A stretch of DNA of 64,000 nucleotides, from assembly GCA_000004985.1 (NCBI GenBank), contig GG738858.1. One strand, given 5' to 3'. Origin of the DNA: Naegleria gruberi. Taxonomy: Eukaryota. Below the pieces are notes generated by a model. The model saw nothing but the letters and a program-made list of their open reading frames with translations, did no database searches and was not told the DNA's origin. The first letter of the stretch is position 1. Each line of letters starts with the position of its first letter. The position numbers and the translations under genes are program-made. Below, piece after piece: positions 18,866-63,573 of this stretch.

Positions 18866-19006
18866 TTCTTTTATTCAAAAATAATTTAACCCATGTAAAC
18901 AATTTGAATTCATTATTGGTGGATATTGTTTGAGAAGATTTGAAATCTAGTTCATTATTTGGAGGTAATTTTAAGGATTCAACATTTCCTAGTTTTACAA
19001 TAAAAA

Positions 19007-19124
19007 GACTACAGCACCACAGGTTCCCAAGTTGTCTCCAACCTCAGTACTGATGTGGCTCGACGATGCTTAACTTCTCAAATCGGACGGGATGAGGTGC
19101 ATTCATCGTGATATGGCCGTAGCC
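19007..19124 (-). rRNA. 5S rRNA: 5S ribosomal RNA gene, about 118 nt, with a downstream T5 Pol III terminator.
   Basis: Reverse complement reads GGCTACGGCCATATCACGATGAATGCACCTCATCCCGTCCGATTTGAGAAGTTAAGCATCGTCGAGCCACATCAGTACTGAGGTTGGAGACAACTTGGGAACCTGTGGTGCTGTAGTC followed by TTTTT. This matches the universal 5S consensus (GCCTACGGCCATACC...CCCGATCTCGTCTGATCTCGGAAGCTAAGCAGGGTCGGGCCTGGTTAGTACTTGGATGGGAGACC...GGGTGCTGTAGGC). Confidence 0.85.
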
Positions 19125-38032: not shown

Positions 38033-38132
38033 TATTTTTTGTTGTATTCAAGGGTAAGCTCTCCATCAAAATATAAGCTTGCGTAATTGTGATCTATTTT
38101 TGTCTTTTAATTGAAAAACAATAGATAAAAAA

Positions 38133-41876: not shown

Positions 41877-43205
41877 ATGTTTGCAACTTCAAGTGGTCGT
41901 TTTGGTTTAAATTTTGATGATGATAGTGATGATGAATTAATGCTTGTAGATGATGAAAAGGCTGTGGAAAAAATTCAAGACAATGATGATGAATTAATGC
42001 AAGAATCGGAGGAGGATTATAAAAAGTTTCTTAAGGAGAGTGATACATCACTGACAAGCAATTATTCAAATTTACCAAAATCATTTAAACAATCGATAAT
42101 GCACGATTATATTGGACATACTATTCAAAATATTGGTGTATTGTTTTATAATAATTTGGTTCCACAAGTGAGTACATCATTCTCCAAGACATCAAGTGCA
42201 AGCTTTTCGGAATTAATATTGGCTATTTCCAATAGAAACACTGTTCGATTCTATACCTTGTTGAATGATAGCAAACAAATGAAAATTATTGAATTTTCTT
42301 CAGAAGATAATTCCATCACTTTGGAGGAAAATATCAAATTTATCAAGGTTATTGATGATCTTTTAATTGTTTGTGACGAAAGAGGTACAATTTATGTTTA
42401 TAGACACAATGTTAGTCAGATTCCACAACCAGATCAAACAAAATTATTGCCAACACATGAACTTAAAATTACTTGCTCATATAGACCTTTCGAAATTTGT
42501 CCAAATGATTCCAATAACTTTTTATCTTTTGATGTCGAAGCACTTTTTGAGGGAGATATTTTGAAAATCACTGTTGCTTTAGGTACTAGTAATGGAGCTA
42601 TTTATTATTCAACATTCTCAAACACAACCAGAAAGCCTTCTCAATTTGAAGTTCTCAGACAAATCAAATATCAACACAAATCTATGCTTCCAATTCTTGG
42701 TCTTACATTCCCAATCAGAAAGTTGGTTGCTGTTGATATTCCAATTATGTTATATTATAGAACTATGAATTGTGTATTCTCTGTTGATGTAAACGATAAC
42801 AGCATTACACAAGCTAAGTACGAGCCAACTTTGGTAATGAAAACAAAGGACAGAATAACATGTCTATTTGTTCATCCTCTCCAACCAAATAATATTATTG
42901 TTGGTTTGGCAAAAGGTACACTTATTGGAAGAGACCAAATCAGTGTGTGGGATAGATCAGTTTCAAACAATGCAATTAAGGCTATCACATTTGGAAATCA
43001 ATCTAAGAGTATTCTTGTTGGAGATGAACAAGGATTTATTTACAGTGTCGACATGACAAATATTAACCAAAAATCAAGTCAATCATCTGAAAAGAGCATA
43101 GAGAATCTTGATGGAAATGACGTTCTACATATTGAATATCTTTCATCTGAAGATAAGATTTTAGCTGTTAATTCAAATGGAAGAATTAACTTGGTTTTGA
43201 ATTAA
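41877..43205 (+). CDS. Hypothetical 442-aa protein with an acidic N-terminus (possible beta-propeller).
   Basis: aaaaATG context and an uninterrupted ORF. No family recognised. Confidence 0.45.
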   Translation: MFATSSGRFGLNFDDDSDDELMLVDDEKAVEKIQDNDDELMQESEEDYKKFLKESDTSLTSNYSNLPKSFKQSIMHDYIGHTIQNIGVLFYNNLVPQVSTSFSKTSSASFSELILAISNRNTVRFYTLLNDSKQMKIIEFSSEDNSITLEENIKFIKVIDDLLIVCDERGTIYVYRHNVSQIPQPDQTKLLPTHELKITCSYRPFEICPNDSNNFLSFDVEALFEGDILKITVALGTSNGAIYYSTFSNTTRKPSQFEVLRQIKYQHKSMLPILGLTFPIRKLVAVDIPIMLYYRTMNCVFSVDVNDNSITQAKYEPTLVMKTKDRITCLFVHPLQPNNIIVGLAKGTLIGRDQISVWDRSVSNNAIKAITFGNQSKSILVGDEQGFIYSVDMTNINQKSSQSSEKSIENLDGNDVLHIEYLSSEDKILAVNSNGRINLVLN

Positions 43206-45320
43206 ACTTGAGGTTGAGTTTCTGTTTCTTGATTATTTTCTTCAAGTGTTCCAATAGGATTTTGAGTTTCTTCTTTAGTTTCAATTTTATCGCTAAGCAC
43301 AGCTTCAATCATCTTTGCTGATGTTGGCTCACTAATATCAACAGTTGTAGGAACAGATTTTTCTGTGTCTTTTGCAGAAACTTCTGCCTTGTCTTTGCTT
43401 TCTTTGAGTCTTTTTTGTTCTGCTTTCTTTGCCAAAATAGTTGGAGAAGTTTCTTTGAGGAGGAAAATGTACATAATGATACCTATTAAGGTAAATCCAG
43501 CAAAAATAAACCAAGGAACTGCTTGACTTGTTACAGATACAACTGGAATAAAGAATAAGGAAAGTACAATAGTTGTAACCCACATTGTCAAAGTACTCAA
43601 ACCAGTTCCATAAAGGATTACTTTCTCATTCTCTCCATTGAATACTTCGTGAGCTAGAATATAACACAAAGAGCCAATACCAATATTGAATCCTAAAAGG
43701 AATATACAAATAAAAATGATTGCTAAAATGATCTTGTAATCTGTTCCATTCTCAGAAAATTGAAAAATGAATCCTCCAGCAATATCTGCCAAGAAACAAA
43801 TAGTCATCTAAAAGGGTTAAAATTGAACTCAAAACACGAAACTTACACCAACAAGAGTAAGAGTTTTTCTTCCTAACCTATCAACAAGGAAAATGTTTGG
43901 AAAGACAGTTAAAACCTGCCACATTGAAATACCAAATGATGTGAGTAGTTGATCAAGAGCATCAGTGAGACCTGCACTTTGCATTAAACTTGGGGTGAAA
44001 CTAGTTGCTGATTGAATACCAGTCCATTCCAAAGCCATCATACCATAACAACCAAGTATTAATGGAATAATGACCTTTGAACAGAATAATCTCTTCATAG
44101 CAGCAATGGCTGACATTTGCTCCTGCTTAACTTCTGCAGAGGTATTTGGATCCTTTTCTTTGTTTTCCTTAATTTCCCCAGCATTTGTTGATTGCCTCTT
44201 TTCCTCTAATTCAATATTGTTGGATGTTGATGGAGTGGTTTCCTTACTATCATTATCTTTTAAGAATTGTGGAGACTCTGGAACGATAAACAATATAAGG
44301 AAGAACAATGGAACGCTCCACAAGTTATGGAATGCATGAACAGCTCTCCACATATCAGCAAAACGAACAAAAATTGCAGCAAATGCATAACCCAATGCAA
44401 TTCCTGCAGCCACACCAAGGTTATACATGGAGCCACACAATCCTTGATACTTTGAGTATGGCAACAATTCTGCCACATACATTGAGCAAACAACAGTAGA
44501 AATTCCAGCACCTGCACCAAGGAAACAACGAAACACAATAAGGGATGCATAAGTATAAGAAGCACTTGCTCCAATAGATCCCAACATTGAAATTAGACAA
44601 CAAATAAGCATGCTTGCCTTCCTTCCCAAAAGAGATCCTGTAAACATTGAAAACAAACAACCTGCAAGACCACCAATGAAAATACTACTGGCAAACAAAC
44701 CTTGCAATAAGGTTGTTCCTAAATCTGAAGAGGTACTACTTGTAGATGAAGTGTTATTTTGTTCATTGGTCATAAATAAGGAAAGGGTGTTGGCTTGTTG
44801 AGTTCTGATTTTGAATTTGGTGCACCCACTATTCTGTTGGTTGTTCTTACTGATGACGAGCGAAGAGTGCAACAGGTTCATCAAACTCTTCATATTAAAA
44901 AGTGTCGCCAACAGTTCTTCATGATTTTGATCATTCCAAATGTTTTGTTTCGATGTGGATGATTGTTGAGAAAGTGAACGTTGGGAATCTTCTTCTGATA
45001 ATGAATGAAGCAAATGGTCATCATAGTTATAATTATTACTGATATCTACAACTATTGGTAAATCTAGAACAAATCGATCTACAAAGGATGATCGAAGGCT
45101 GGAGAAGAAGGAAGAAAAACCATTAATATTTACATTATCATAACTGGTAGAACGGATTAAAGTACCATTGGATGAGGAGGATGAATTGTTGGATGAGAAG
45201 AAGGCAGTGGTGGCACTTGAAAGACCACCTCCGATGGTTCCTAAAGCGTAACCAAATACTAAACCACCAAGAATATTGACCAGTACAAGAATAATTGCAA
45301 GAGGAATAGGTTTGGATTTG
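43202..45320 (-). CDS. Major facilitator superfamily sugar-porter-like transporter. Exons about 45320..43847 and 43807..43202, with a 39-nt intron 43808..43846 (GTAAGT..TTTTAG). The N-terminal start is unresolved (no in-frame ATG before TM1; a further 5' exon is likely).
   Basis: TM1 with GGLVFGYALGTIGG (cf. GGxLFGYDxGVISG). Loop motifs GRK, PESPQFL, VDRLGRK. 12-TM hydropathy. Splice joins ...TLTLVG|MTICFLADIAGG. Confidence 0.65.
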
Positions 45321-50555: not shown

Positions 50556-51551
50556 TCAATTTTGGGAAGTGGTTGAAGATGGAGATTTGTTGACCAAGTA
50601 TTGACCATTGTAATAGCAGAGGGATGGGAGTTTGAGGTGAACAAGAGTCATTTCATCAACTCTTTGTTGGACACGTTCTGGATTTGCGAAACGACTGTGA
50701 CAGCCAATTACATTTTCATCTGCAATGACAGAGTCAACTGGAGTGATTGGATTGGATTGAAGCCATAATTCTGAAAGTGACTGTTGGCAAAATTGGGAAA
50801 TAAAGTCTAAGAGTGTTTCCAAAGGTGTTGTTATCAGATTTCCATAAAATCCTAAATGTTTGATATTTCCACATTTTCTAATTTCTTCTTCTGGAATTTC
50901 GCTAATTTGATTTGAACTCAGAGAAAGATATTCCAATTTGTTGGATGTAGCATTATCTTCAGGGAGTGGTAAGTATTGAATCTTGTTAATTCTATTAATC
51001 TTTAAATCCAATCTTCTTAAATTTTTACAATATTGCAAATCAGGATTATTCATTTCCGTAATCTTATTATTAGATAACATTAATTCACGTAAATTAACCA
51101 ATTCCTTCAATGGTGGAAATTCTGTAATATCATTACAACTCAAATTCAGCTTTACAAGTGAACTAGTTAAAACTTTCCTTCCCATCAAGGTAATTTCATT
51201 GGTTGGAAATTTAGAAAGAAAATTTCTCGAACCATAAAATTCAATAATTGGACTTGTGTCATCATGACCATCCTTTTCTTCAAGTTTAAATGTAACTCCT
51301 TCCCCATCAAATCCACGAAGATAAGTAGCAGTCAAATCCCACATAATTCCAACATCGGAACCATTCGTACATTTTCTTTGTTTAATAGTAAATATCGAAC
51401 GTGAGAGATTTTCCTCTCTTCTTGTTAGTTTGTTCTTCCCGCCATCTTCCGAATTTTCGAGTGGATGTTTTTTTGTATTTTCCTCAAGTTGGTTCTCTGC
51501 GGTTGTTGAGGTTTGTTCCTTTGGTTGTTCGCTCATTTTTTTAAAGTGCAA
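50556..51551 (-). CDS. Leucine-rich-repeat protein (LRR, SDS22-like spacing), 331 aa.
   Basis: Consecutive LxxLxLxxNxI units: LNLSCNDITEFP, LRELMLSNNKITEM, LRRLDLKINRINKI, LEYLSLSSNQISEI. Confidence 0.65.
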   Translation of the reverse strand: MHFKKMSEQPKEQTSTTAENQLEENTKKHPLENSEDGGKNKLTRREENLSRSIFTIKQRKCTNGSDVGIMWDLTATYLRGFDGEGVTFKLEEKDGHDDTSPIIEFYGSRNFLSKFPTNEITLMGRKVLTSSLVKLNLSCNDITEFPPLKELVNLRELMLSNNKITEMNNPDLQYCKNLRRLDLKINRINKIQYLPLPEDNATSNKLEYLSLSSNQISEIPEEEIRKCGNIKHLGFYGNLITTPLETLLDFISQFCQQSLSELWLQSNPITPVDSVIADENVIGCHSRFANPERVQQRVDEMTLVHLKLPSLCYYNGQYLVNKSPSSTTSQN

Positions 51552-51620
51552 ATTTAATATTGCAAATAATTAATATTTAATTAATAAATTACAACAATTG
51601 TAAATTATTAATTCAAAAAA

Positions 51621-52247
51621 ATGTTACGATTCATTACCAAGCCAAAATCACTCCTCAAAACAAGTTCCATCCTCTCCTTCGGATTTCAAAAATTCGCAAA
51701 CCTTCCTTCCAACAACAATGCAATGCTGACAACTTTCCATCACCAAGGTGAAAGAATTCGTTTCTATTGCCAGGCTTGTGAGGAATCAATTGCACCAGGA
51801 ACCCCCTATGAAGATCATCACTTGGATATTTACTTATCCAATGCGTTGGATGTTATGTTGACCGATGATAAACATGCTTTGGAAATTTTGGACTTTGTTT
51901 TATCTGCTCGACCTTCACAAGCCAACGTACTATCAAAGAAGGCTGCAATTTTATTTGGAAGAATGGATTTTAAGGAGGCTGTTGTATGTTTGGATAAATG
52001 TCTTGATTCTGTACCTCCCCATGCAAGACCTTATATTTTGGAAGATGTTATTTGTACATATAAGGGAAATTATTTTGAGGAACGATATGTGATGCACTTA
52101 ATTCAAGGAGTTTTTAGAAGACATCTTGGAGAATTGGATATTGCTATTTCTGAATTTGGAATAGCATTGTTGGATAGAGCCAATGATCCATTTGCAATTA
52201 GTTTGAGAGATGAGCTCATTGAAAAGAAGAAACAACAAACCAACTGA
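51621..52247 (+). CDS. Hypothetical 208-aa protein (N-terminus presequence-like).
   Basis: aaaaATG context and an uninterrupted ORF. No family recognised. Confidence 0.4.
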   Translation: MLRFITKPKSLLKTSSILSFGFQKFANLPSNNNAMLTTFHHQGERIRFYCQACEESIAPGTPYEDHHLDIYLSNALDVMLTDDKHALEILDFVLSARPSQANVLSKKAAILFGRMDFKEAVVCLDKCLDSVPPHARPYILEDVICTYKGNYFEERYVMHLIQGVFRRHLGELDIAISEFGIALLDRANDPFAISLRDELIEKKKQQTN

Positions 52248-52279: not shown

Positions 52280-54113
52280 TTATTTTGAGGATATTTGGAT
52301 TGTGATCTCCTGTCCAGTATTGACATTATTAGTTAATAGTAATTCTACATAATTCTGATGGGATTGTTGGAGAATATTCATTGAATTGCTTGGATATAAT
52401 TTAATGGAAAATCCATTCGGATAATAATATTCTCTATTCAGATAGATAACTGTTGTTTCACTTCGACAATTTTCACTAACTTTGAATGAAAATTTGAAAT
52501 CACTCGAGAGAGGATCGAATTTCATATAGGTTGGATCTCCACAAACAATTGGTACATAAGTTCTACTCAGAGCTTTGACTTTTCTTGTTTGTAATTGTCC
52601 ATTCGCTCCATAAAAACTTTCAATAGTTGGAGGTGAAGCAGCAGTTGTCATATCATTATAATACTTGAATTGCCAATAGGTCCATGATCTCAAATATTGA
52701 TCTGCTAAACTTGTCATCCAATCCAATTCGTACTCACTTTGAGTGAAATTGCTTAAAGCTCCAAATTCAGTCATGAATGCTCCAGTCTATTGTTAAGATT
52801 GTTTCAATGTACTATATATCAAAAGTGTTCTTACCTTTAATCGTTTTACATCTGATTCCTTTGCCACAACAGTGACATCATCATCAATCCTGCATGTAAA
52901 TCTACTCTTTGGGTCTCCAGTTGAGTTGACATCTCCACAATAGATATGATAAGAGTAAACTTGTTTCTCTAAATCTTGAGTGCCAAGAGGAGATTCTTCA
53001 AATCCAGATGAAAGTAGATCAGTAACAGTAGGTTCTATACCAGTTCCAAAACTTAAAGTTACTTATAACACTTACCAAAGAAAACTAAATGATTCGAATT
53101 CACTGAACGAATAGCAGAATATACTTGTTGATAAAGTGGAATTAAATTCTGACGGTCTGCCTTCCCTCTCTGATCCAAAAGTAGTGACAAATCCTCATAA
53201 ATATCACCTGGCCATGGCTCATTAATAATTCTATTCAGCCATTTAATTTCACACATCATCAATTTACAACAATAGATACTCGTTAATGAATTATTGAACA
53301 ACATATGAAACTCACTCAAGTCCTAAAACATTTTCCTCATCCTTAAAATAATTTGCAGCAACTTTCCAAAAATTTACAAATGAATCCCTTAAACCATTTA
53401 CATTATTATAAAAGTTTTGGAATGCATTTGAGGCACCCTGAGTCAAATAATAGATAAAGAATGGTTCTTTCAAACAATCTTGAATAATTGGAGCACCAGT
53501 TGTTTGATTAATTCTCAAATGAATACTTTCGAATGGAAATGGAAAAGGTTGAGGTGATTTATATTGAACAGCCCATCTAGGAAACCCCTCTCCACAAAAC
53601 AGATCACTCATCACATCTTGATGAACATCCAGAATAATCATGATATCATACTGTTGTGCATTTCTAATAATTTCCTTTAGTTTCGAAAGATATTTGTAAT
53701 CATATTGATTTCTAATAGGTTCTGTTCCTTGCCATGAAAGCATCAATCTAATCACATTAAATCCCCAATCCTTTAAATTCTGAAAATCAACATTAGTCAA
53801 TGAAGTATTCGAATTGTAATTATACAAATCAGGATAAAAAGGATAAACCTTGTAAACTGCATTCACACTATTTTCCATATGATCAATTTTTCTGATAAAT
53901 CCATTGATTAACATACCCATGGAATATTCTTGTCCTATTCAATCCATCAATAAATTGTTGATTGACCTTGTTAACTTGAACGAAACCATTCGCATTCACA
54001 ACCATGCAATCAATCATCATGACAAGTGTCATCATGAACAGAAGAACCGTTTGATTCTTCAATATTAGTTGCGACATTTTTTGAATGAAATCCCACAACT
54101 CTTTGCCATTCAT
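52280..54113 (-). CDS. Glycoside hydrolase family 5 enzyme (cellulase/endoglycoceramidase-like), about 536 aa, 5 exons: 54113..53917, 53867..53316, 53230..53076, 53034..52835, 52786..52280. Introns of 49, 85, 41 and 48 nt.
   Basis: Signal peptide. RIFHG|VNAVYKVYPFYPD. GFNVIRLMLSW. Acid/base Glu in LGLE|IINEPWPGD. SYHIY. Nucleophile Glu in TGAFMTEFGA. Donors are GTATGT/GTGAGT/GTAAGT/GTAAGA and the phases are consistent throughout. Confidence 0.7.
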
Positions 54114-54192
54114 CTGTCTTTGATTTTACCATCATCAACAAGCTATCTCTTCTGTTGTAAACTTTTTGATTTTTTAATTATTTAATAAAAAA

Positions 54193-57045: not shown

Positions 57046-58192
57046 TTATTCATCACCAATACTGGAATAGAATAAAATGTAGCATGTTTCTGAAATACCA
57101 GAAAATGAGGATGCCTCATCGTGAGGGAAGCCAAATGTGGATTTTACATAATCTTCATCCACATTGGACACTTTATCATCATCAAAAAGGAACCACCTCT
57201 CTTCAGATCTAATTATACACTTGTAATGGCCACAATTTGGTCCTGAGCCAATGTGAACAACTGCTGCAAATAATTTGTAAGTTTTCACTTTCTCATCTTG
57301 CGACAGGTTTGGCAATTTAAAATCGAATGGGAAGGTTACTCGATATGATAACTTTTTAAAGTTATTATTCATATATTTGAATCTCTTCAATTGGATTGCA
57401 AGTACTTGGGGTTGTCTTTTGATTTTCATACTTGTTTGGGCTTCCTGGTGTGAACAGCAACGATCACAGTAAAATTTGTTATTGGATTTTAAAATTTGCA
57501 TTCCACTAAAGTTTTTTAAACATTGAGTAATTGAGGAATATTGTTGAACATCTACACTGAGATCTAGAAACGATTCTTCCCTACTAGTTACATTCTCACA
57601 CATGATACATCTCGTTTCATTTATCAAAGTTCCTTCAAATATGTCATGAATAAATGTTTTCAGTTTTTTTAGATCCTCATTATCATTTGTTTGTGATTCT
57701 TGATTTTTCAGTTCATGTTGTAAAATTTCCACAAAGTGATTTAGTAAATAATTGAGAAATTCTTGTGCATCTTGTTGCATTAGAGATTTAAACATTTCAT
57801 TATCCAGTCTCAATCTTTGTATGAATGCTTTTGGTCCCAAATATCCAGTCTTTTTCTTTTGATTATTTAACTGATAAAACAGATCAGCCAATGATACTAG
57901 TAAATTAGGTTCCGAATTTTGTGGTATTGTTTTATAGTAATTCAAGATGTGATTTCTAAATGGTTTGCAAAAATACAATGCCTGCAGAACACTATTAGCA
58001 TAACATGTATTTCCGAACTGAATTATGATCAAAATTATTATCAATCTATTTTGATGATCAACCTACATTCTCCAATCCAAAATACTTTTCATTTCCTTCA
58101 TCAATTTTTGTGTCTATTCTACGAGAATTCGTCAATGGTGTAGATCCATTCGGACCGTTTTGTGTCGATTCTGCAGTATTGGTATTTCCCAT
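57046..58192 (-). CDS. USP12: Ubiquitin carboxyl-terminal hydrolase, USP12/USP46 orthologue (365 aa). Exons 58192..58067 and 58017..57046; 49-nt intron with a GTAGGT donor.
   Basis: [33 protein letters not shown] matches human USP12/46 [33 protein letters not shown]. Collinear through the Zn-ribbon CxxC pairs. His box VVHIGSGPNCGHYKCIIRSEERWFLFDDD. Confidence 0.9.
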
Positions 58193-58301
58193 TTTTTATT
58201 TTTAAATTTATTTTAATAACTTCCTTGAGGAAATAAAGGCATTGATTTTTGCTAGAATATTACTCAACAAATTTAAATATTTAATTTTATAAATAAGAAA
58301 T

Positions 58302-60293
58302 TTAGTCAACCTTAATACTACCATAAATTGTTTTGACAAACCATAAAGAACAGAAGAATCCAACAGCACCAGTCAAAACAAAGAAGAAGTAACATAAAAT
58401 TGAACAATATCCGAAATAGAGAACTGTCATCATGAAAGTATCAATTTCAAGAGAAGTAAAGTAGTAGAAAGCAGAATAAAGGAAGAGGTACAATGCAGAG
58501 CTACCACTACTCAAGAAACTTCTCCACCACCAACGGTAGTCTTCATTACATAATTGGAAGTAAGCAAATACAACACTAATTTCAGCAGAAGTTACAACCA
58601 AAATAAGGAAGACAACAAATAAAAATCCAAACAAGTAATAATATTGGTGCAACCAAATGGAGCTCAAAATAAAGTAGGATTGAATGAAAACACTTCCAAA
58701 TGGCAATACACCTCCCATTAAAACAGAGATAACTGGATGCATGTAAATAGGTTGAACTGGGATTTGTCTAGGGATTTGCAAAGTCTTGACTGGAACTTCA
58801 ATTTCACTTGAACGGTTTCCAAAGAAAGCACCTACAACAACAAGTGGAACAGAGATTGCAAGCCACAAACCAAAGATTTCAAGAAGTGAAAGGAAAGGAA
58901 GGGCTGATGTAGAATGGACAGAAACCCAAACCAAAAAGTTAACAAAAGTGAAGAGGAACAATGGAATTGCTGGGAAAGCCAAAGCTGCCAAAAGTGAAAC
59001 TGTCTTCCATGATTTACCTTGGAACATCTTGTAGAGTCTCAAAGTGGTATATCCATTAATAATACCCATAAATGCAAACAAAACCAATATAACAGTTGGA
59101 AGTGAGCCTCTTGATTCCGGAGAAATGAAACCAACAAGGGCTAATAATAATGAAACAACCAAACAGCCCAATACTTGCATACCAGCTCCTGCGCTTAATG
59201 CCAACAATGTAGAATTCTTTGGAGTACGGAATACATCACCATGTACAAGCTTCCAACCAGTTTCATCACCTGGATCTTCTTCATCCTTTTCGTTATATAA
59301 ATTGATATCCTTTCTCAAAATTCTCAACATGATCATACCAACCATACCAGTCAAGAAGAAGACAATGAGCAATGAGTTGATAATTGAGAACCAGTGAATA
59401 CGATAGTCATCTGGATTTTCCTCAGTATTGACGTATGCGTCAAATCTAGATCCCCAAGCAATTGAGCTTTCTTTCCAAATAATAGAATAAGAGTATTGAA
59501 CATTCTTCAAGTTGTCATCAATAACTAATCTATCAAAATCATCTGGAAGTGGCTTATCACCAGTACAAGAAGATTCTGTGTGTTCAATACTGGTTGGATA
59601 AACTTCAGCACCAACAATAACTTGTTTACCATTCTTTCTAACATGGTAATACAACACAAAAGTAAAATGGTTGTTCAAATAATAATTAAATCCGACAGTT
59701 CCATCAGCAGATTGAATCTTTTCCTTACATCCCACAGGATAACCATCAGGTCTATAATACTTTGTAGATTTTTCTTGATTCAAAATTTCTTCCTTTGATG
59801 GTGGAGGATTTCCGCAGGAAGTATAACCTTGAAGATTAGCAAAAGGAAGTTGATCAACAACTAATTGTGCCAAATAATCTTCATCAATTTTTTCCTTCAA
59901 ATTTTTAATATCATCAGAGGTGATTTGGGAAGGACATTCTGTCTCCACACAAGAATCAGCTTTTCCATCACAAGAGGAAATTGAAGTCAATCTCTTGCAA
60001 ATAACATCTTTCTTAAATTCAACAGAATACACTGAGTTGTGGATACGATCACCGAGCAAATATTCTCCCAAGTTTTCTACATTATTTTTAATTTCCTTTG
60101 GTTTGCAATATGGCATAGAATAAAAATCAAAAGCCAAATTGTGAGTACTAGATAATTTCCTGGTTTTAATTTTTACAGTATTTCCTTCTTCATAATAATT
60201 ATCAGGTATTCCTGGTAGGAAAGCGTTAATGAAAGAAACAAAAACGAGTAATAACACTAGTTGGGTAATGAGAACGTTGATTGGTGCTCTCAT
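58302..60293 (-). CDS. TM9SF: Transmembrane 9 superfamily (nonaspanin) protein, second paralogue, 663 aa, intronless.
   Basis: Signal peptide. Large luminal domain. 9 TM helices. C-terminal ...KTIYGSIKVD, the same tail as the 38988 gene. Confidence 0.85.
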   Translation of the reverse strand: MRAPINVLITQLVLLLVFVSFINAFLPGIPDNYYEEGNTVKIKTRKLSSTHNLAFDFYSMPYCKPKEIKNNVENLGEYLLGDRIHNSVYSVEFKKDVICKRLTSISSCDGKADSCVETECPSQITSDDIKNLKEKIDEDYLAQLVVDQLPFANLQGYTSCGNPPPSKEEILNQEKSTKYYRPDGYPVGCKEKIQSADGTVGFNYYLNNHFTFVLYYHVRKNGKQVIVGAEVYPTSIEHTESSCTGDKPLPDDFDRLVIDDNLKNVQYSYSIIWKESSIAWGSRFDAYVNTEENPDDYRIHWFSIINSLLIVFFLTGMVGMIMLRILRKDINLYNEKDEEDPGDETGWKLVHGDVFRTPKNSTLLALSAGAGMQVLGCLVVSLLLALVGFISPESRGSLPTVILVLFAFMGIINGYTTLRLYKMFQGKSWKTVSLLAALAFPAIPLFLFTFVNFLVWVSVHSTSALPFLSLLEIFGLWLAISVPLVVVGAFFGNRSSEIEVPVKTLQIPRQIPVQPIYMHPVISVLMGGVLPFGSVFIQSYFILSSIWLHQYYYLFGFLFVVFLILVVTSAEISVVFAYFQLCNEDYRWWWRSFLSSGSSALYLFLYSAFYYFTSLEIDTFMMTVLYFGYCSILCYFFFVLTGAVGFFCSLWFVKTIYGSIKVD

Positions 60294-60334
60294 TTTTTTT
60301 TAATTATTCTTCTTACAAACGATGTATTACGTAA

Positions 60335-61471
60335 TCAATTTCCCACAACAGCCAACAAACCATCATCAAGAAGAGACTCATTGAGGAAGGGATGGGATAC
60401 ACTAATAAAAAACAAACTGGGCTCATTTGCAAGACCCACTATCTCCTTATCTGAGTTTGTGAGATAAAAAAGTTTCCCTGACTTTGATGTTAAAGCCATG
60501 ACCTTCCTGCTATTACAAACTCTGACAACCTCTTCATTGATTTTGTTGTTGAAACAGATTGTTACATCTTTAACCTTACCATCAACCCACTTAAAAAAGT
60601 AGTCTTTTTCGAGAAAGAGATTAAACTCACAACTTGATCTGACCAAAAACCAATCATCACAACAAATAAGAGAACAGGTAAGTAAAGGCAATGAATTTTC
60701 CATTGAAAATCCAAATTCCTTATTCAAGTCAAACTCTAGAAACACAGGAGTGTTTCCTCCATTCAAAACTCCAGACACAAAAATCTTTAGTTTCTTTGAG
60801 AAAGCAATTGAGTAGTATTGACCACATCCTATTTCTTGCAATTCTTTAACAGACATTTCCTTATTGATAATCAAGGCTTTTTGATTTTTTGTTTTTGTGT
60901 CTAGAAATAATTGGCCTTGGTTTTGCAACCCCGATACCATAAGCTGATCGTCGTCAGACAACATTAGAACGTGGTACATTCCTATGGCGATTTTTTGAAT
61001 AGATTTTCCACCAGGTATTTTAACTTCAGTAATGTTGTAAACATTAGAATTAGGGATAATTCCTAAACAACCTTCCTCATTGAACCCACAACCATAAACT
61101 TTACCCTGTTCCGTCAAGAAAAATGTTTGGTTGTAGCCACAAATAACAGATCTTAAGGGTTCTGATCTCTTATTAAAAAAATCGATTATTTCGAAATCGC
61201 ATTGTTTCTTCACTTCACACATACCAAGCTGCCCAAAGAAATTATTTCCACAACAATACAGAAGAGAACCTTGTCTAATAAAAGTATGAGATGAACCAGT
61301 TGAAATGCCGTCTATTGTTGAAATAGGCAGCTGCAAGATTTTTGGGCTTGATAACTTGGTCTTATTGTCTGATAACAGCTGCCCATCAGTGTTGTCTCCA
61401 TAAACAAGCAAGCTCTTTGAAGCACTACTTAACAATTCATCAACAAATGAATCTTCGAAATCAAAAACCAT
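60335..61471 (-). CDS. RCC1-like repeat protein (378 aa).
   Basis: Repeated YGDNTDGQLL / CGNNFFGQLG / CGFNEEGCLG blades typical of RCC1/RLD propellers. Confidence 0.55.
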   Translation of the reverse strand: MVFDFEDSFVDELLSSASKSLLVYGDNTDGQLLSDNKTKLSSPKILQLPISTIDGISTGSSHTFIRQGSLLYCCGNNFFGQLGMCEVKKQCDFEIIDFFNKRSEPLRSVICGYNQTFFLTEQGKVYGCGFNEEGCLGIIPNSNVYNITEVKIPGGKSIQKIAIGMYHVLMLSDDDQLMVSGLQNQGQLFLDTKTKNQKALIINKEMSVKELQEIGCGQYYSIAFSKKLKIFVSGVLNGGNTPVFLEFDLNKEFGFSMENSLPLLTCSLICCDDWFLVRSSCEFNLFLEKDYFFKWVDGKVKDVTICFNNKINEEVVRVCNSRKVMALTSKSGKLFYLTNSDKEIVGLANEPSLFFISVSHPFLNESLLDDGLLAVVGN

Positions 61472-61571
61472 TTTTTTTGATTAAATTAAGAAGCTTCTTT
61501 TTTAGATGAAAACCGTAGTTAATTGTAAAATCATCAGATTATTGGTATTACTGTTACCAAAGAAATAAAAA

Positions 61572-62057
61572 ATGAGCAATCTTGATTTGAACACGGCACT
61601 TATTTCCCCAATTTCAAATTCTTCTCCTGTTTTACGAAGGAATGATACAATACCAAGGGTTTCCATCATGGAGTCCTCTTTTTTGGAAGATATTTCAGAA
61701 ATTCATGAGGTTCCGATCAATAGAAACATAAATGATGAACTGAACAGTCTTCAACACGATCTTTCCAGAATTTCTCAAGGAAGAATATTTGACACAGGAC
61801 CAATTGATGAAATTATGCAAGATACAATATTTACAACCGAAGAAAGAAATGAAATTTATTTAAATGATAAGATAATTAACGATTTTTCATCACGAGTAAT
61901 GCTTGAAAATTATATTCTATCTAAATGTGAATCGGAACTTGACAATACAAAGAATAACAAAATTTGGAATGAAGATGTAAGAGAAAAATTTATTGGTACT
62001 GATGATTGGGATTACCTACATCATGATGAGCTCAAATCTGCCTTCAAAAAATTTTAA
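61572..62057 (+). CDS. Hypothetical 161-aa protein.
   Basis: aaaaATG context. No family recognised. Confidence 0.4.
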   Translation: MSNLDLNTALISPISNSSPVLRRNDTIPRVSIMESSFLEDISEIHEVPINRNINDELNSLQHDLSRISQGRIFDTGPIDEIMQDTIFTTEERNEIYLNDKIINDFSSRVMLENYILSKCESELDNTKNNKIWNEDVREKFIGTDDWDYLHHDELKSAFKKF

Positions 62058-62076: not shown

Positions 62077-63573
62077 TTATCGAATACTTCTCATGTTTCT
62101 TGGAGCAGTTGATAAAACAGATTGATGTTCTGAAGGTATGGATTTTTCTGAAAGAGTGTTTGGGCTGAATACTTTCCAAAATCTCAAAGTTTCATCACCT
62201 GCAGCACTTACTACAGTTGTCCCATCAGGACTTTGAGCCATGTGTAATACTCTACTTTTATGACCAGTCAATTCGGCAACTTTTACGAGAGAAGGATACT
62301 TCCAAACACACAACTGGTTTTGTGAAAATCCATGAGATGAGATAATTTCTCTATCATTCTTTGACCAAATAATTGAGCACACTTGAGAATTGGTATCAAT
62401 AGTATTAAGTAATGTACCTGATTGGGTATTCCAAAACATCATCTTTCTGTCACTTGTTCCTCCTCCAGAAGCCAATAAATTATTTTGCCAAGGACACCAT
62501 GCCAAGGCTTTAACTGCAGCCACATGCTCTCTCAATGAAAACTTTGGAAGAACCTCATTTTGAGTTAAAATCAAGCTCTTATCCCAAATATTCAATATAT
62601 TATCATTTGCTCCACTAGCCAATTGATTTCCATCAGGAGACCATTTCAAACCACAAACCTCAAAGTCTTGATGGGCACTTTGTGTTGTCAATAAATGTTT
62701 GGCTTGTCTTACATCATGGGATAATATTTTACCATCTTTGCCTCCACTTGACAAAATGTAAGAATTCCAAGATAGAGAGCAAACTCTTTGGGTATGACCT
62801 TTCATTGTTCTGATTTGCTTACTTCTGGATACATCCCATATTTGAACATCGTTGTAATTTGTTCCAACAGCCAAAAAACTACCATCTTCTGACCAGGACA
62901 CACTCGTAACATAATTATCTTGTTGAGAGCAGGACATCAACTTATTGATTTCACACGTTTCACCATTCCATAAATATACACTGTCACATAATGAAACAGC
63001 TAGTATGTTATTTTGATTCCAATCCAATAGATTGAGATAGTAATCATCAATCATACCTGGAGCATCCAAAACCTTATCTGGAGTTTGAGGAATATGTCTG
63101 GAAGAAACTTGTTTTCGTTGACTTGTAGAAGTGGTAGTTGTTCCAGGGAATATTTTGTTTTGAGAATAAAGTACACGTAGATTATTGTTCCAATCAGCAG
63201 GTGCCTTTGGAGCTTTTTCAGTAAGGGCCAGGATTTTTGCATCCTTTACTTTCTTACCATCAAACAATCGTTGCTCTAATATCTTGTTATGTAGATTTTC
63301 CTTGTCACCTTCGGAAACACTCATATCTTCATCATCCTCCATTTGATTGTTAATTAAATTATACTTGCAAATGTCCATGTCTTGTGAAGTCCTTCTAGAG
63401 GGAATAAATCTCTGATCAATATTGCTAGTACTACTACTACCATCGATATCAAGTGTTGTGGAAGAGAGTGTCTTTTGTTTTTGCTTTCTCTTCCATCTTG
63501 GTTCGTATACTGAAGAAAGATCTGAAGTTAAATCGTCATTAATATCGGCCGAGTCTTCAAAGTGGTAGGACAT
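62077..63573 (-). CDS. CDC20: CDC20/Fizzy-family APC/C co-activator (WD40), 498 aa.
   Basis: C-box DQRFIPSRR. KEN box GDKENLHN. Seven WD40 repeats. C-terminal IR tail (..RNMRSIR*). Confidence 0.85.
   Translation of the reverse strand: MSYHFEDSADINDDLTSDLSSVYEPRWKRKQKQKTLSSTTLDIDGSSSTSNIDQRFIPSRRTSQDMDICKYNLINNQMEDDEDMSVSEGDKENLHNKILEQRLFDGKKVKDAKILALTEKAPKAPADWNNNLRVLYSQNKIFPGTTTTSTSQRKQVSSRHIPQTPDKVLDAPGMIDDYYLNLLDWNQNNILAVSLCDSVYLWNGETCEINKLMSCSQQDNYVTSVSWSEDGSFLAVGTNYNDVQIWDVSRSKQIRTMKGHTQRVCSLSWNSYILSSGGKDGKILSHDVRQAKHLLTTQSAHQDFEVCGLKWSPDGNQLASGANDNILNIWDKSLILTQNEVLPKFSLREHVAAVKALAWCPWQNNLLASGGGTSDRKMMFWNTQSGTLLNTIDTNSQVCSIIWSKNDREIISSHGFSQNQLCVWKYPSLVKVAELTGHKSRVLHMAQSPDGTTVVSAAGDETLRFWKVFSPNTLSEKSIPSEHQSVLSTAPRNMRSIR

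What the first reader, a model, noticed from the sequence alone, without database searches (positions are those of the whole stretch)
60294..60334. Tandem same-strand genes separated by only 41 nt (RCC1-like stop to TM9SF start)
The RCC1-like ORF ends at TGA 60335-37. The ATG of the downstream TM9SF gene, which has a perfect signal peptide, is at 60293 with an a9 run in front. There are 41 nt for a 3' UTR, polyA signal, promoter and 5' UTR. The two genes may be co-transcribed (dicistronic) or may use an internal promoter inside the upstream coding region. Alternatively the upstream gene may have an unrecognised 3' intron.
Basis: seen in the sequence. Interest (0 to 1): 0.5.

Follow-up and report, generated by a model that had tools for sequence, protein, structure and literature searches.

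The report
Two Naegleria genes 41 bases apart
Two same-strand genes of the amoeba Naegleria gruberi really are only 41 bases apart, but this looks like the tight end of a very densely packed genome, with the first gene's end signals and the second gene's start signals sharing the same short stretch, rather than a bacterial-style shared message.

Summary
On the minus strand an RCC1-like ORF (61471..60335, stop TGA 60337-60335) is followed after exactly 41 nt by the ATG (60293) of a TM9SF/EMP70 gene. The window is Naegleria gruberi NEG-M. Both ORFs are 100% identical to the neighbouring annotated proteins XP_002679381.1 and XP_002679380.1, so the gap is already in the public annotation.

The "missed 3' intron" idea is refuted: the RCC1-like C-terminus aligns to within 4 residues of the end of its only full-length homologue. 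The TM9SF start is fixed by an in-frame TAA two codons upstream and by orthologue N-termini.

The spacer contains UGUA, then AAUAAU/AUUAAA, then an A8 run before the ATG. This fits published N. gruberi 3'-end rules (median 3' UTR 39 nt) and the genome-wide A-run start context (all 20 AAAAAATG sites in the window are gene starts). Spacers elsewhere in the window are similarly tight.

Most likely there are two separate mRNAs whose transcription units abut or overlap by about 10-50 nt. A true dicistron is unlikely: adjacency is not conserved and a poly(A) signal sits between the ORFs. It is not excluded, because no transcript data could be examined. Low interest; an ordinary feature of a compact genome.

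The parts
60335..61471 (-). RCC1-like protein gene (378 aa; equals XP_002679381.1 / NAEGRDRAFT_65547), intronless ORF, stop TGA 60337-60335
   Evidence: ORF list. Pfam RCC1 and RCC1_2 above cut-off, WD40_RLD below cut-off. 100% identical to the N. gruberi predicted protein. C-terminus co-terminal with homologue P0002. A7 run before its ATG at 61471. No A[AT]TAAA anywhere in its CDS.
60294..60334 (-). 41-nt spacer between the TGA of the RCC1-like gene and the ATG of TM9SF
   Evidence: Read directly. No unusual RNA structure over 60234-60394 (z = -0.35). No Rfam family or tRNA here.
60326..60335 (.). Perfect 10-bp palindrome ATTACGTAAT (ACGT core at -39 from the ATG), beginning with the last base of the TGA stop. 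Candidate transcription-factor site for TM9SF (inferred).
   Evidence: TTACGTAA occurs only once in the 64-kb window. An ACGT core lies at -39, -37 and -35 upstream of the TM9SF ATG in N. gruberi, N. lovaniensis and the L004 Naegleria-like contig, against an ACGT density of 0.9-1.9 per kb. It is not at that position in Willaertia.
60314..60317 (-). UGUA, candidate upstream auxiliary element of the RCC1-like poly(A) site. It is also part of a TTGTA motif at -25 from the TM9SF ATG.
   Evidence: Sequence. UGUA is described as the upstream element in N. gruberi in PMC11529991. TTGTA enrichment upstream of starts in the window is weak and was not reproduced in L002/L003.
60299..60308 (-). Overlapping hexamers AAUAAU (60308-60303) and AUUAAA (60304-60299), the candidate poly(A) signal of the RCC1-like mRNA at +27/+31 after its stop
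   Evidence: This is the first A[AT]TAAA on this strand after the RCC1-like start codon. 17 of 33 gene ends in the window have A[AT]TAAA between -4 and +60 of the stop, against about 14% expected by chance. AAUAAA is the top hexamer in N. gruberi, and AUUAAA is the weaker variant that predominates in coding regions (PMC11529991).
60294..60301 (-). A8 run directly 5' of the TM9SF ATG, the generic Naegleria start context or short leader. An in-frame TAA lies at 60302-60300.
   Evidence: All 20 AAAAAATG sites in the window are gene starts, out of 2511 ATGs. All four TM9SF orthologues have an A-run before the ATG.
60279..60289 (-). Predicted (not observed) cleavage/poly(A) zone of the RCC1-like mRNA, 15-20 nt downstream of the hexamer and so 5-15 nt inside the TM9SF ORF
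   Evidence: Inference from the hexamer position and the 15-20 nt hexamer-to-cleavage distance reported for N. gruberi (PMC11529991). U-richness rises downstream at 60258-60229.
58302..60293 (-). TM9SF / EMP70 gene (663 aa; equals XP_002679380.1), intronless. Signal peptide encoded by 60293-60222.
   Evidence: Pfam EMP70 full length, E=1e-189. 100% identical to annotated P0124. Orthologues at 83%, 81% and 72% identity have 23-47-aa signal peptides before the conserved FLPG(I/L)PD.

Best explanation
These are two ordinary, separately expressed genes of the very gene-dense Naegleria gruberi nuclear genome. Their transcription units abut or overlap. The 41-nt spacer is used twice. For the upstream RCC1-like gene it is the 3' UTR, with UGUA (60317-60314) followed by AAUAAU/AUUAAA (60308-60299). 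Cleavage and polyadenylation are predicted about 15-20 nt further on, at or just inside the first codons of TM9SF, giving a 3' UTR of roughly 45-55 nt. For the downstream TM9SF gene the same stretch, possibly together with the last part of the RCC1-like coding region, serves as promoter and very short leader. It holds an ACGT-core palindrome at -39 and the A8 run that marks gene starts throughout this genome. Each mature mRNA carries one ORF. Shown here: the coordinates, both gene models, the motifs, the local spacing statistics and the lack of conserved adjacency. Inferred: the cleavage position, the transcription start and any role of the palindrome.
For: Gene models:
- Both ORFs equal the annotated neighbours XP_002679381.1 and XP_002679380.1.
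- The RCC1-like C-terminus is co-terminal with homologue P0002.
- The TM9SF ATG has an in-frame TAA two codons upstream, and orthologues start with signal peptides at the same place.

3'-end signals:
- Nanopore direct-RNA data for N. gruberi give a median 3' UTR of 39 nt, an AAUAAA signal (AUUAAA as the weaker variant) 15-20 nt before cleavage, UGUA upstream and U-rich sequence downstream (PMC11529991). The spacer has UGUA, then 10 nt, then AUUAAA at +31.
- No A[AT]TAAA occurs in the whole RCC1-like CDS.

Start signals:
- All 20 A>=5+ATG sites in the window are gene starts.
- An ACGT core lies at -39, -37 and -35 in three Naegleria TM9SF orthologues despite different upstream neighbours.

Genome compaction:
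- Divergent ATG-ATG spacers measure 84, 100, 100 and 115 nt.
- Convergent stop-stop distances are -4, 1, 19, 19 and 32 nt.
- Stops are 1-2 nt apart in N. lovaniensis and in the P0002 contig.
- Naegleria gene density is described as prokaryote-like (PMC9465069).

Not an operon-type lineage or pair:
- Heterolobosea have about 2 genes per directon and equal intra- and inter-directon spacers.
- None of the N. gruberi neighbours lies within 8 kb of TM9SF in N. lovaniensis or Willaertia.
Against: - No transcript data could be examined here, so neither the 3' end of the RCC1-like mRNA nor the 5' end of the TM9SF mRNA is observed.
- The hexamer is AUUAAA/AAUAAU, not the strong AAUAAA. PMC11529991 reports that AUUAAA is typical of coding regions, so a fraction of polymerases may read through into TM9SF.
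- The next AAUAAA on this strand lies only after the TM9SF stop, at 58212 and 58200.
- The ACGT coincidence was noticed post hoc, rests on a 4-nt core with different flanks, and is absent at that position in Willaertia.
- The TTGTA enrichment was not reproduced in the related loci.
Confidence: 0.8

Rival explanations
1. True dicistronic mRNA. Both ORFs are carried on one mature capped and polyadenylated transcript that starts upstream of 61471, and TM9SF is translated by reinitiation or internal entry on the A-rich spacer.
For: - The spacer is only 41 nt and has only a weak-variant poly(A) hexamer.
- The first strong AAUAAA on the strand comes after the TM9SF stop.
- The spacer is A-rich and unstructured.
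- Naegleria belongs to Discoba, whose euglenozoan branch is polycistronic.
Against: - Reinitiation after a 378-codon ORF is very inefficient in eukaryotes (established knowledge), and the RCC1-like ORF contains many AUGs, which rules out leaky scanning.
- TM9SF has the same strong A-run start context as all independent genes.
- A UGUA+AUUAAA unit lies between the ORFs.
- The adjacency is specific to N. gruberi.
- Heterolobosea lack directon architecture.
- The nanopore study of N. gruberi annotated gene-by-gene 3' UTRs and does not mention polycistrons.
Confidence: 0.07
2. Separate mRNAs, but the TM9SF promoter and transcription start lie well inside the RCC1-like coding region. TM9SF then has a long 5' UTR that overlaps the upstream ORF, and the spacer motifs have no promoter role.
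For: - 41 nt is little room for a core promoter plus leader.
- The evidence that the spacer holds a promoter element is only suggestive.
Against: - Four divergent gene pairs in the window share only 84-115 nt between their ATGs, so about 40-60 nt of upstream DNA per gene seems sufficient, unless those promoters also extend into the neighbouring coding sequence.
- A long leader through the end of the RCC1-like ORF would contain several out-of-frame AUGs; for example ATGATGATGG is visible at 60366-60357.
- The ACGT core keeps the same distance from the ATG in three species with unrelated upstream DNA.
Confidence: 0.2
3. Annotation artefact. The RCC1-like ORF is either a pseudogene or non-gene, or really continues through a 3' intron, so the true gene end lies elsewhere and the gap is not a real intergenic spacer.
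For: - Only three database homologues were found.
- Only the N-terminal ~240 residues match RCC1 profiles.
- Tiny introns do exist in this window, for example a 39-nt intron in the sugar-transporter gene.
Against: - There is 36% identity over 358 residues with P0002, including the non-RCC1 C-terminal half and running to the last residues of both proteins. This indicates a conserved, complete protein.
- The ORF has a typical A7+ATG start.
- The model is identical to the public annotation.
- TM9SF needs its own N-terminal signal peptide, so a fusion is implausible.
Confidence: 0.03

Closest known systems
Overlapping or abutting transcription units in compacted eukaryotic genomes (microsporidia and nucleomorphs; Williams, Slamovits, Patron, Fast & Keeling 2005 PNAS, cited from my own knowledge and listed in the references of PMC3629993; also Giardia and Entamoeba with ultrashort UTRs, PMC11529991)
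   Same: The intergenic spacer is shorter than the combined length of a normal 3' UTR, promoter and 5' UTR, so the signals of neighbouring genes must share sequence or lie inside neighbouring genes. This goes together with genome-wide compaction, very short UTRs and stop codons of convergent genes that touch.
   Different: N. gruberi is a free-living amoeboflagellate with a 41-Mb genome (size from my own knowledge), not a reduced parasite or endosymbiont. Whether its transcripts actually overlap at this locus was not observed here. In microsporidia many multigene transcripts were demonstrated directly.
N. gruberi poly(A) site architecture and 'dual-use' signals (Genome Res 2024, PMC11529991)
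   Same: UGUA lies upstream and an A(A/U)UAAA hexamer sits within a few tens of nt of the stop, with U-rich sequence further downstream and a short 3' UTR. The idea of one sequence serving two functions is the same: there a stop codon doubling as poly(A) signal, here a poly(A) signal doubling as the start context of the next gene.
   Different: The hexamer here is AUUAAA/AAUAAU rather than AAUAAA. The second function proposed here, leader or promoter of the next gene, is not described in that paper. The cleavage site of this gene was not available to me because no supplementary tables are held.
Polycistronic transcription units of Euglenozoa and SL2-type operons of nematodes
   Same: Same-strand genes with very short spacers, in a member of Discoba.
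   Different: There is no conserved gene cluster: the local directon is three genes (RCC1-like, TM9SF, UCH), with spacers of 41 and 109 nt. The adjacency is not conserved in sister species. A poly(A) signal lies between the ORFs. Heterolobosea average about 2 genes per directon. No spliced-leader trans-splicing is known in Naegleria (own knowledge, not tested).

Membership tests
TM9SF / EMP70 (nonaspanin) family (downstream gene) | Full-length match to Pfam EMP70 (PF02990) | tested here: met
   E=1e-189, 632 bits against a cut-off of 27. Residues 55-620 cover profile positions 2-517 of 517.
TM9SF / EMP70 (nonaspanin) family (downstream gene) | N-terminal signal peptide followed by the conserved luminal domain, starting at the same place as orthologues | tested here: met
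   MRAPINVLITQLVLLLVFVSFINA|FLPGIPDNYY. Orthologues from N. lovaniensis, Willaertia and contig L004 have 23-47-aa hydrophobic leaders before FLPG(I/L)PD. No signal-peptide predictor was run.
RCC1-repeat (RCC1-like domain) proteins (upstream gene) | RCC1 repeats scoring above Pfam gathering thresholds | tested here: met
   PF00415 scores 63.1 bits (cut-off 21.7) and PF13540 scores 60.9 bits (cut-off 22).
RCC1-repeat (RCC1-like domain) proteins (upstream gene) | Complete seven-bladed RCC1-like propeller (PF25390 WD40_RLD) | tested here: inconclusive
   119 bits, below the cut-off of 150. Only residues 21-237 match profile positions 2-223 of 363. The C-terminal ~140 residues match no profile but are conserved in P0002. 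No structure prediction was run.
Dicistronic / operon-type transcription unit | Both ORFs present on one mature or precursor transcript | not testable with these tools
   No transcript reads are accessible. The only Logan contig found (L001) is colinear with genomic DNA, retains the UCH intron region, and does not reach the spacer.
Dicistronic / operon-type transcription unit | Gene adjacency conserved in related species, as expected for a selected co-transcription unit | tested here: not met
   The upstream neighbour of TM9SF is a divergent kinase in N. lovaniensis and a divergent Arf-type GTPase in Willaertia. tblastn finds no RCC1-like, UCH, CDC20 or ORF161 homologue within +/-8 kb.
Dicistronic / operon-type transcription unit | No 3'-end processing signal between the cistrons, or an SL trans-splice acceptor instead | tested here: not met
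   UGUA followed by AAUAAU/AUUAAA lies in the spacer. SL trans-splicing is not known in Naegleria (own knowledge, not tested).
Canonical N. gruberi poly(A) site (PMC11529991) | A(A/U)UAAA hexamer shortly after the stop, UGUA upstream and U-rich sequence downstream | tested here: met
   AUUAAA lies at +31 and UGUA at +18 to +21. U content rises to 5-7 per 10 nt at 60258-60229. The hexamer is the weaker variant.
Canonical N. gruberi poly(A) site (PMC11529991) | Mapped cleavage site with an untemplated poly(A) tail | not testable with these tools
   This needs the reads of GSE260731. No supplementary tables are held.
Overlapping transcription units of compact eukaryotic genomes | Spacer shorter than typical 3' UTR + promoter + 5' UTR, in a genome where such spacing is common | tested here: met
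   The spacer is 41 nt against a median 3' UTR of 39 nt. Convergent stops lie -4 to 32 nt apart in 5 of 8 pairs, and divergent starts lie 84-115 nt apart in 4 of 8 pairs.
Overlapping transcription units of compact eukaryotic genomes | Observed overlap of the two transcripts | not testable with these tools
   No transcript ends are available.

The most novel reading that the evidence does not exclude
The pair is a genuine dicistronic mRNA in a heterolobosean, or produces a substantial read-through RNA from which TM9SF is translated via its A-rich leader. That would be a free-living discoban outside Euglenozoa using polycistronic expression, and so a possible evolutionary precursor of euglenozoan polycistrony. 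A milder novel reading is that the 41-nt spacer is a complete minimal Pol II promoter (ACGT-core palindrome plus A-run initiator) that also serves as the upstream gene's polyadenylation signal.
Probability: 0.07. Interest if true: 0.6.

Novelty: new member of a known kind. Interest (0 to 1): 0.2.

Why it matters
In itself it matters little. It is one extreme example of the known compaction of Naegleria genomes, and both gene models are already in the public annotation. Its modest value is as a natural test case. Little is reported about promoters and transcription starts in Naegleria, and transfection vectors currently use about 1 kb of flanking DNA (PMC12845041). If a 41-nt spacer suffices to end one mRNA and start the next, the locus defines an upper bound on the size of a functional Naegleria promoter plus leader, and supplies a compact regulatory cassette for transgene design. 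If reads instead showed a dicistronic RNA, that would bear on the origin of polycistronic transcription in Discoba.

Tried and rejected
1. Transcript evidence. Exact-protein look-ups for both window ORFs found nothing on record. The one Logan contig (L001, ERR1078381) covers only 57927-59695, is colinear with the genome through the UCH intron region, and is therefore genomic and uninformative.
2. Supplementary 3'-UTR tables of PMC11529991 are not held. The Fritz-Laylin 2010 genome paper is not held. The 1988 alpha-tubulin paper is held only in fragments. One literature query was wasted through a loose min_terms setting.
3. The apparent second very short tandem spacer (43829/43807, 21 nt) turned out to be a 39-nt intron inside one sugar-transporter gene. 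It was removed from the statistics.
4. Aligning the TM9SF upstream regions across four species gave no meaningful alignment beyond the A-run. Only the position of the ACGT core is shared.
5. The 6-mer enrichment upstream of starts (ACTACG, TTACAA/TTGTAA, AAGCTT) is borderline after multiple testing and is inflated by divergent pairs sharing spacers. TTGTA was not reproduced in N. lovaniensis or Willaertia. I do not rely on it.
6. RNA folding of the junction shows nothing unusual (z = -0.35), so there is no hint of a structured IRES or terminator.
7. Read-through fusion was rejected: the ORFs are in different frames, and the RCC1-like frame meets TGA again at 60292-60290.

Full report
**What is there.** On the minus strand, the ORF 61471..60335 (378 aa) ends in TGA at 60337-60335. 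The next ORF, 60293..58302 (663 aa), begins at ATG 60293-60291. Between them lie exactly 41 nt, 60334..60294: TTACGTAATACATCGTTTGTAAGAAGAATAATTAAAAAAAA. Pfam identifies the upstream protein as an RCC1-repeat protein: PF00415 and PF13540 score above their cut-offs, while the whole-propeller model PF25390 is below its cut-off and matches only residues 21-237. The downstream protein is a full-length EMP70/TM9SF protein (E=1e-189). The A-run is eight A's plus the A of the ATG.

**Source organism and annotation.**
- The RCC1-like ORF is 100% identical to Naegleria gruberi XP_002679381.1 (NAEGRDRAFT_65547).
- The TM9SF ORF is 100% identical to XP_002679380.1, "endomembrane protein 70" of strain NEG-M.
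- The consecutive accession numbers show that the public annotation already has these two models side by side.
- The window has about 33% G+C, and ORFs cover most of it.

**Are the gene ends right?** Both ends that define the spacer are sound, and the "unrecognised 3' intron" alternative is refuted.
- The only full-length homologue of the RCC1-like protein is P0002, from a metagenome contig, at 36% identity. It aligns from residue 21 to the last residue (378) of the N. gruberi protein and itself ends four residues later. The C-terminus is therefore conserved and complete.
- The TM9SF ATG has an in-frame TAA two codons upstream (60302-60300).
- The next in-frame Met lies about 60 residues downstream, which would delete the signal peptide.
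- Orthologues from N. lovaniensis (83%), a Naegleria-like metagenome contig (81%) and Willaertia magna (72%) all begin with a 23-47-residue hydrophobic leader before the conserved FLPG(I/L)PD.
- The ORFs are in different frames, so read-through cannot fuse them.

**How unusual is 41 nt here?** I refined gene starts and removed pseudo-pairs; for example, 43829/43807 is a 39-nt intron inside one sugar-transporter gene.

| Spacer type | Values in the window |
|---|---|
| Head-to-tail (14 pairs) | 41, 92, 109, 121, 157, 159, 163, 290, 328, 367, 396, 425, 524, 537 nt (median 226) |
| Convergent stop-to-stop (tightest five of eight) | -4, 1, 19, 19, 32 nt |
| Divergent ATG-to-ATG (tightest four of eight) | 84, 100, 100, 115 nt |

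(Sources.)

So 41 nt is the local minimum for head-to-tail pairs, and the next gap downstream (TM9SF to UCH) is only 109 nt. In the tight divergent pairs each gene has only about 42-58 nt of upstream DNA. Related genomes look the same. Stop codons lie 1 nt apart beside the N. lovaniensis TM9SF gene and 2 nt apart beside the P0002 gene. Naegleria gene density has been described as within the prokaryotic range (PMC9465069).

**What the spacer contains.** Nanopore direct-RNA sequencing of N. gruberi (PMC11529991) reports:
- a median 3' UTR of 39 nt;
- AAUAAA as the poly(A) signal, with AUUAAA a weaker variant, 15-20 nt upstream of cleavage;
- UGUA as upstream element and U-rich sequence downstream;
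- 11-13% of stop codons overlapping the hexamer.

The spacer fits this pattern.
- UGUA lies at 60317-60314.
- AAUAAU/AUUAAA lies at 60308-60299, that is +27/+31 after the stop.
- It is the first A[AT]TAAA on this strand since the RCC1-like start codon. The 1137-nt CDS has none, where about 2.6 would be expected.
- In the window, 17 of 33 gene ends have such a hexamer between -4 and +60 of the stop, against about 14% expected by chance.

From the published spacing, cleavage would fall at about 60289-60279, which is 5-15 nt inside the TM9SF ORF. This is an inference, not an observation.

**Start signals.** The last eight bases of the spacer are the A-run.
- All 20 occurrences of AAAAAATG in the window (both strands; 2511 ATGs in total) open a long ORF or a credible first exon.
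- The same holds for most annotated starts in the N. lovaniensis and Willaertia loci.
- A preprint ranks N. lovaniensis among the genomes with the strongest start-codon context.
- The A-run is therefore a generic Naegleria start mark and is not special to this gene.

Immediately after the RCC1-like stop, and sharing its last base, lies the perfect palindrome ATTACGTAAT (60335-60326).
- TTACGTAA occurs once in 64 kb.
- An ACGT core sits at -39, -37 and -35 from the TM9SF ATG in N. gruberi, N. lovaniensis and the L004 contig. Their upstream DNA is otherwise unalignable and their upstream neighbours differ.
- Given ACGT densities of 0.9-1.9 per kb this is suggestive (joint chance roughly 3e-4 to 1e-2, depending on the background used). 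It was noticed post hoc and is absent at that position in Willaertia.

I treat the palindrome as a candidate transcription-factor site for TM9SF, not as an established one.

**Against a selected dicistron.**
- None of the N. gruberi neighbours (RCC1-like, ORF161, CDC20, UCH) lies within 8 kb of TM9SF in N. lovaniensis or Willaertia, where the upstream neighbour is a divergent kinase or Arf-type GTPase.
- Heterolobosea show about 2 genes per directon and no shortening of intra-directon spacers, unlike Euglenozoa (bioRxiv 10.64898/2026.07.29.740908).
- A poly(A) signal lies between the ORFs.
- Reinitiation after a 378-codon ORF is inefficient (established knowledge).
- The junction RNA has no unusual structure (z = -0.35).
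- No Rfam family or tRNA lies there.

**Conclusion.** The most likely picture (confidence about 0.8) is two monocistronic mRNAs whose transcription units abut or overlap by some tens of nucleotides. The 41-nt spacer serves as 3' UTR and poly(A) signal for the RCC1-like gene, and as leader, and perhaps core promoter, for TM9SF. I cannot decide whether the TM9SF transcription start lies in the spacer or inside the RCC1-like CDS, and I give the latter about 0.2. A true dicistron remains possible (about 0.07), mainly because the hexamer is the weak variant and the next AAUAAA on the strand comes only after the TM9SF stop. The closest known phenomenon is overlapping gene expression in compacted eukaryotic genomes: microsporidia and nucleomorphs (Williams et al. 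2005 PNAS, own knowledge), and the ultrashort UTRs and dual-use signals of Giardia, Entamoeba and N. gruberi (PMC11529991). This locus is an ordinary, if extreme, member of that kind.

**Limits.** No transcript data were accessible.
- Look-ups for both proteins returned no transcript-derived contigs.
- The one Logan contig is genomic and does not reach the spacer.
- The decisive test is to map the public direct-RNA reads (GSE260731) and to map capped 5' ends at this locus.

Noticed in passing
window 19006-19124 (-): A complete 5S rRNA gene (Rfam RF00001, 105 bits, model positions 1-120 of 120) sits in the ORF-poor stretch between about 18.3 and 20.4 kb. It was the only Rfam hit in the window, and no tRNAs were found.
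   Followed up: no
whole window, e.g. 12915, 25332, 35473, 41877, 51621, 54193 (+) and 63573, 61471, 60293, 58192, 51536 (-): A run of at least 5 A's immediately 5' of the ATG is an almost perfect marker of gene starts. All 20 AAAAAATG sites (out of 2511 ATGs on both strands) open long ORFs or credible first exons, several with signal peptides (27790, 38988). The same context is seen in the N. lovaniensis and Willaertia loci. It could be used to correct gene starts, and it may reflect very short A-rich leaders.
   Followed up: partly
window about 43793-43831 (-), inside the sugar-transporter gene 43202-45013: Two ORFs that look like a gene pair 21 nt apart are one MFS sugar-transporter gene: Pfam Sugar_tr profile positions 25-326 continue at 328-441. 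They are interrupted by a 39-nt intron, GTAAGT...TTTTAG, whose length is a multiple of three and which contains in-frame stops.
   Followed up: partly
window 37389/37409, 43205/43202, 48051/48053, 52247/52280, 62057/62077: Convergent gene pairs have stop codons 1-32 nt apart, and one pair overlaps by 4 nt. With a median 3' UTR of 39 nt, their mRNAs must overlap antisense at the 3' ends. At 52247/52280 each gene's AATAAA lies on or next to the partner's stop codon.
   Followed up: partly
window 51537-51620, 38033-38132, 61472-61571, 54078-54192: Divergent gene pairs have only 84-115 nt between their ATGs. The 84-nt spacer contains a TTACAATTGTAA palindrome, and the 100-nt spacer upstream of the RCC1-like gene contains a central GAAGCTTC palindrome. 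These are candidate bidirectional promoter elements. AAGCTT is enriched upstream of starts (7 observed against 1.1 expected), but the count is inflated by shared spacers.
   Followed up: partly
window 58045-58301 (-): The ubiquitin hydrolase (UCH) gene downstream of TM9SF starts at ATG 58192 with a 44-aa first exon ending ...EKYFGL, followed by an intron before the catalytic NFGNTCY box. That is only 109 nt after the TM9SF stop. Two AATAAA hexamers (58212, 58200) lie directly in front of this ATG, again merging poly(A)-type and start-context sequence.
   Followed up: partly
L002 10067/10069; L005 1144/1147; L002 17809/17842: Related heterolobosean loci show the same extreme packing. The stops of TM9SF and a convergent kinase are 1 nt apart in N. 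lovaniensis. The stops of the RCC1-like homologue and a convergent gene are 2 nt apart in a metagenome contig. An annotated divergent pair in N. lovaniensis is only 32 nt apart, although that start annotation may be wrong.
   Followed up: no
window 61572-62057 (+): A 161-aa ORF divergent from the RCC1-like gene has a typical A5+ATG start but no Pfam match. It ends 19 nt from the stop of the convergent CDC20/Fizzy gene (62077-63573).
   Followed up: no
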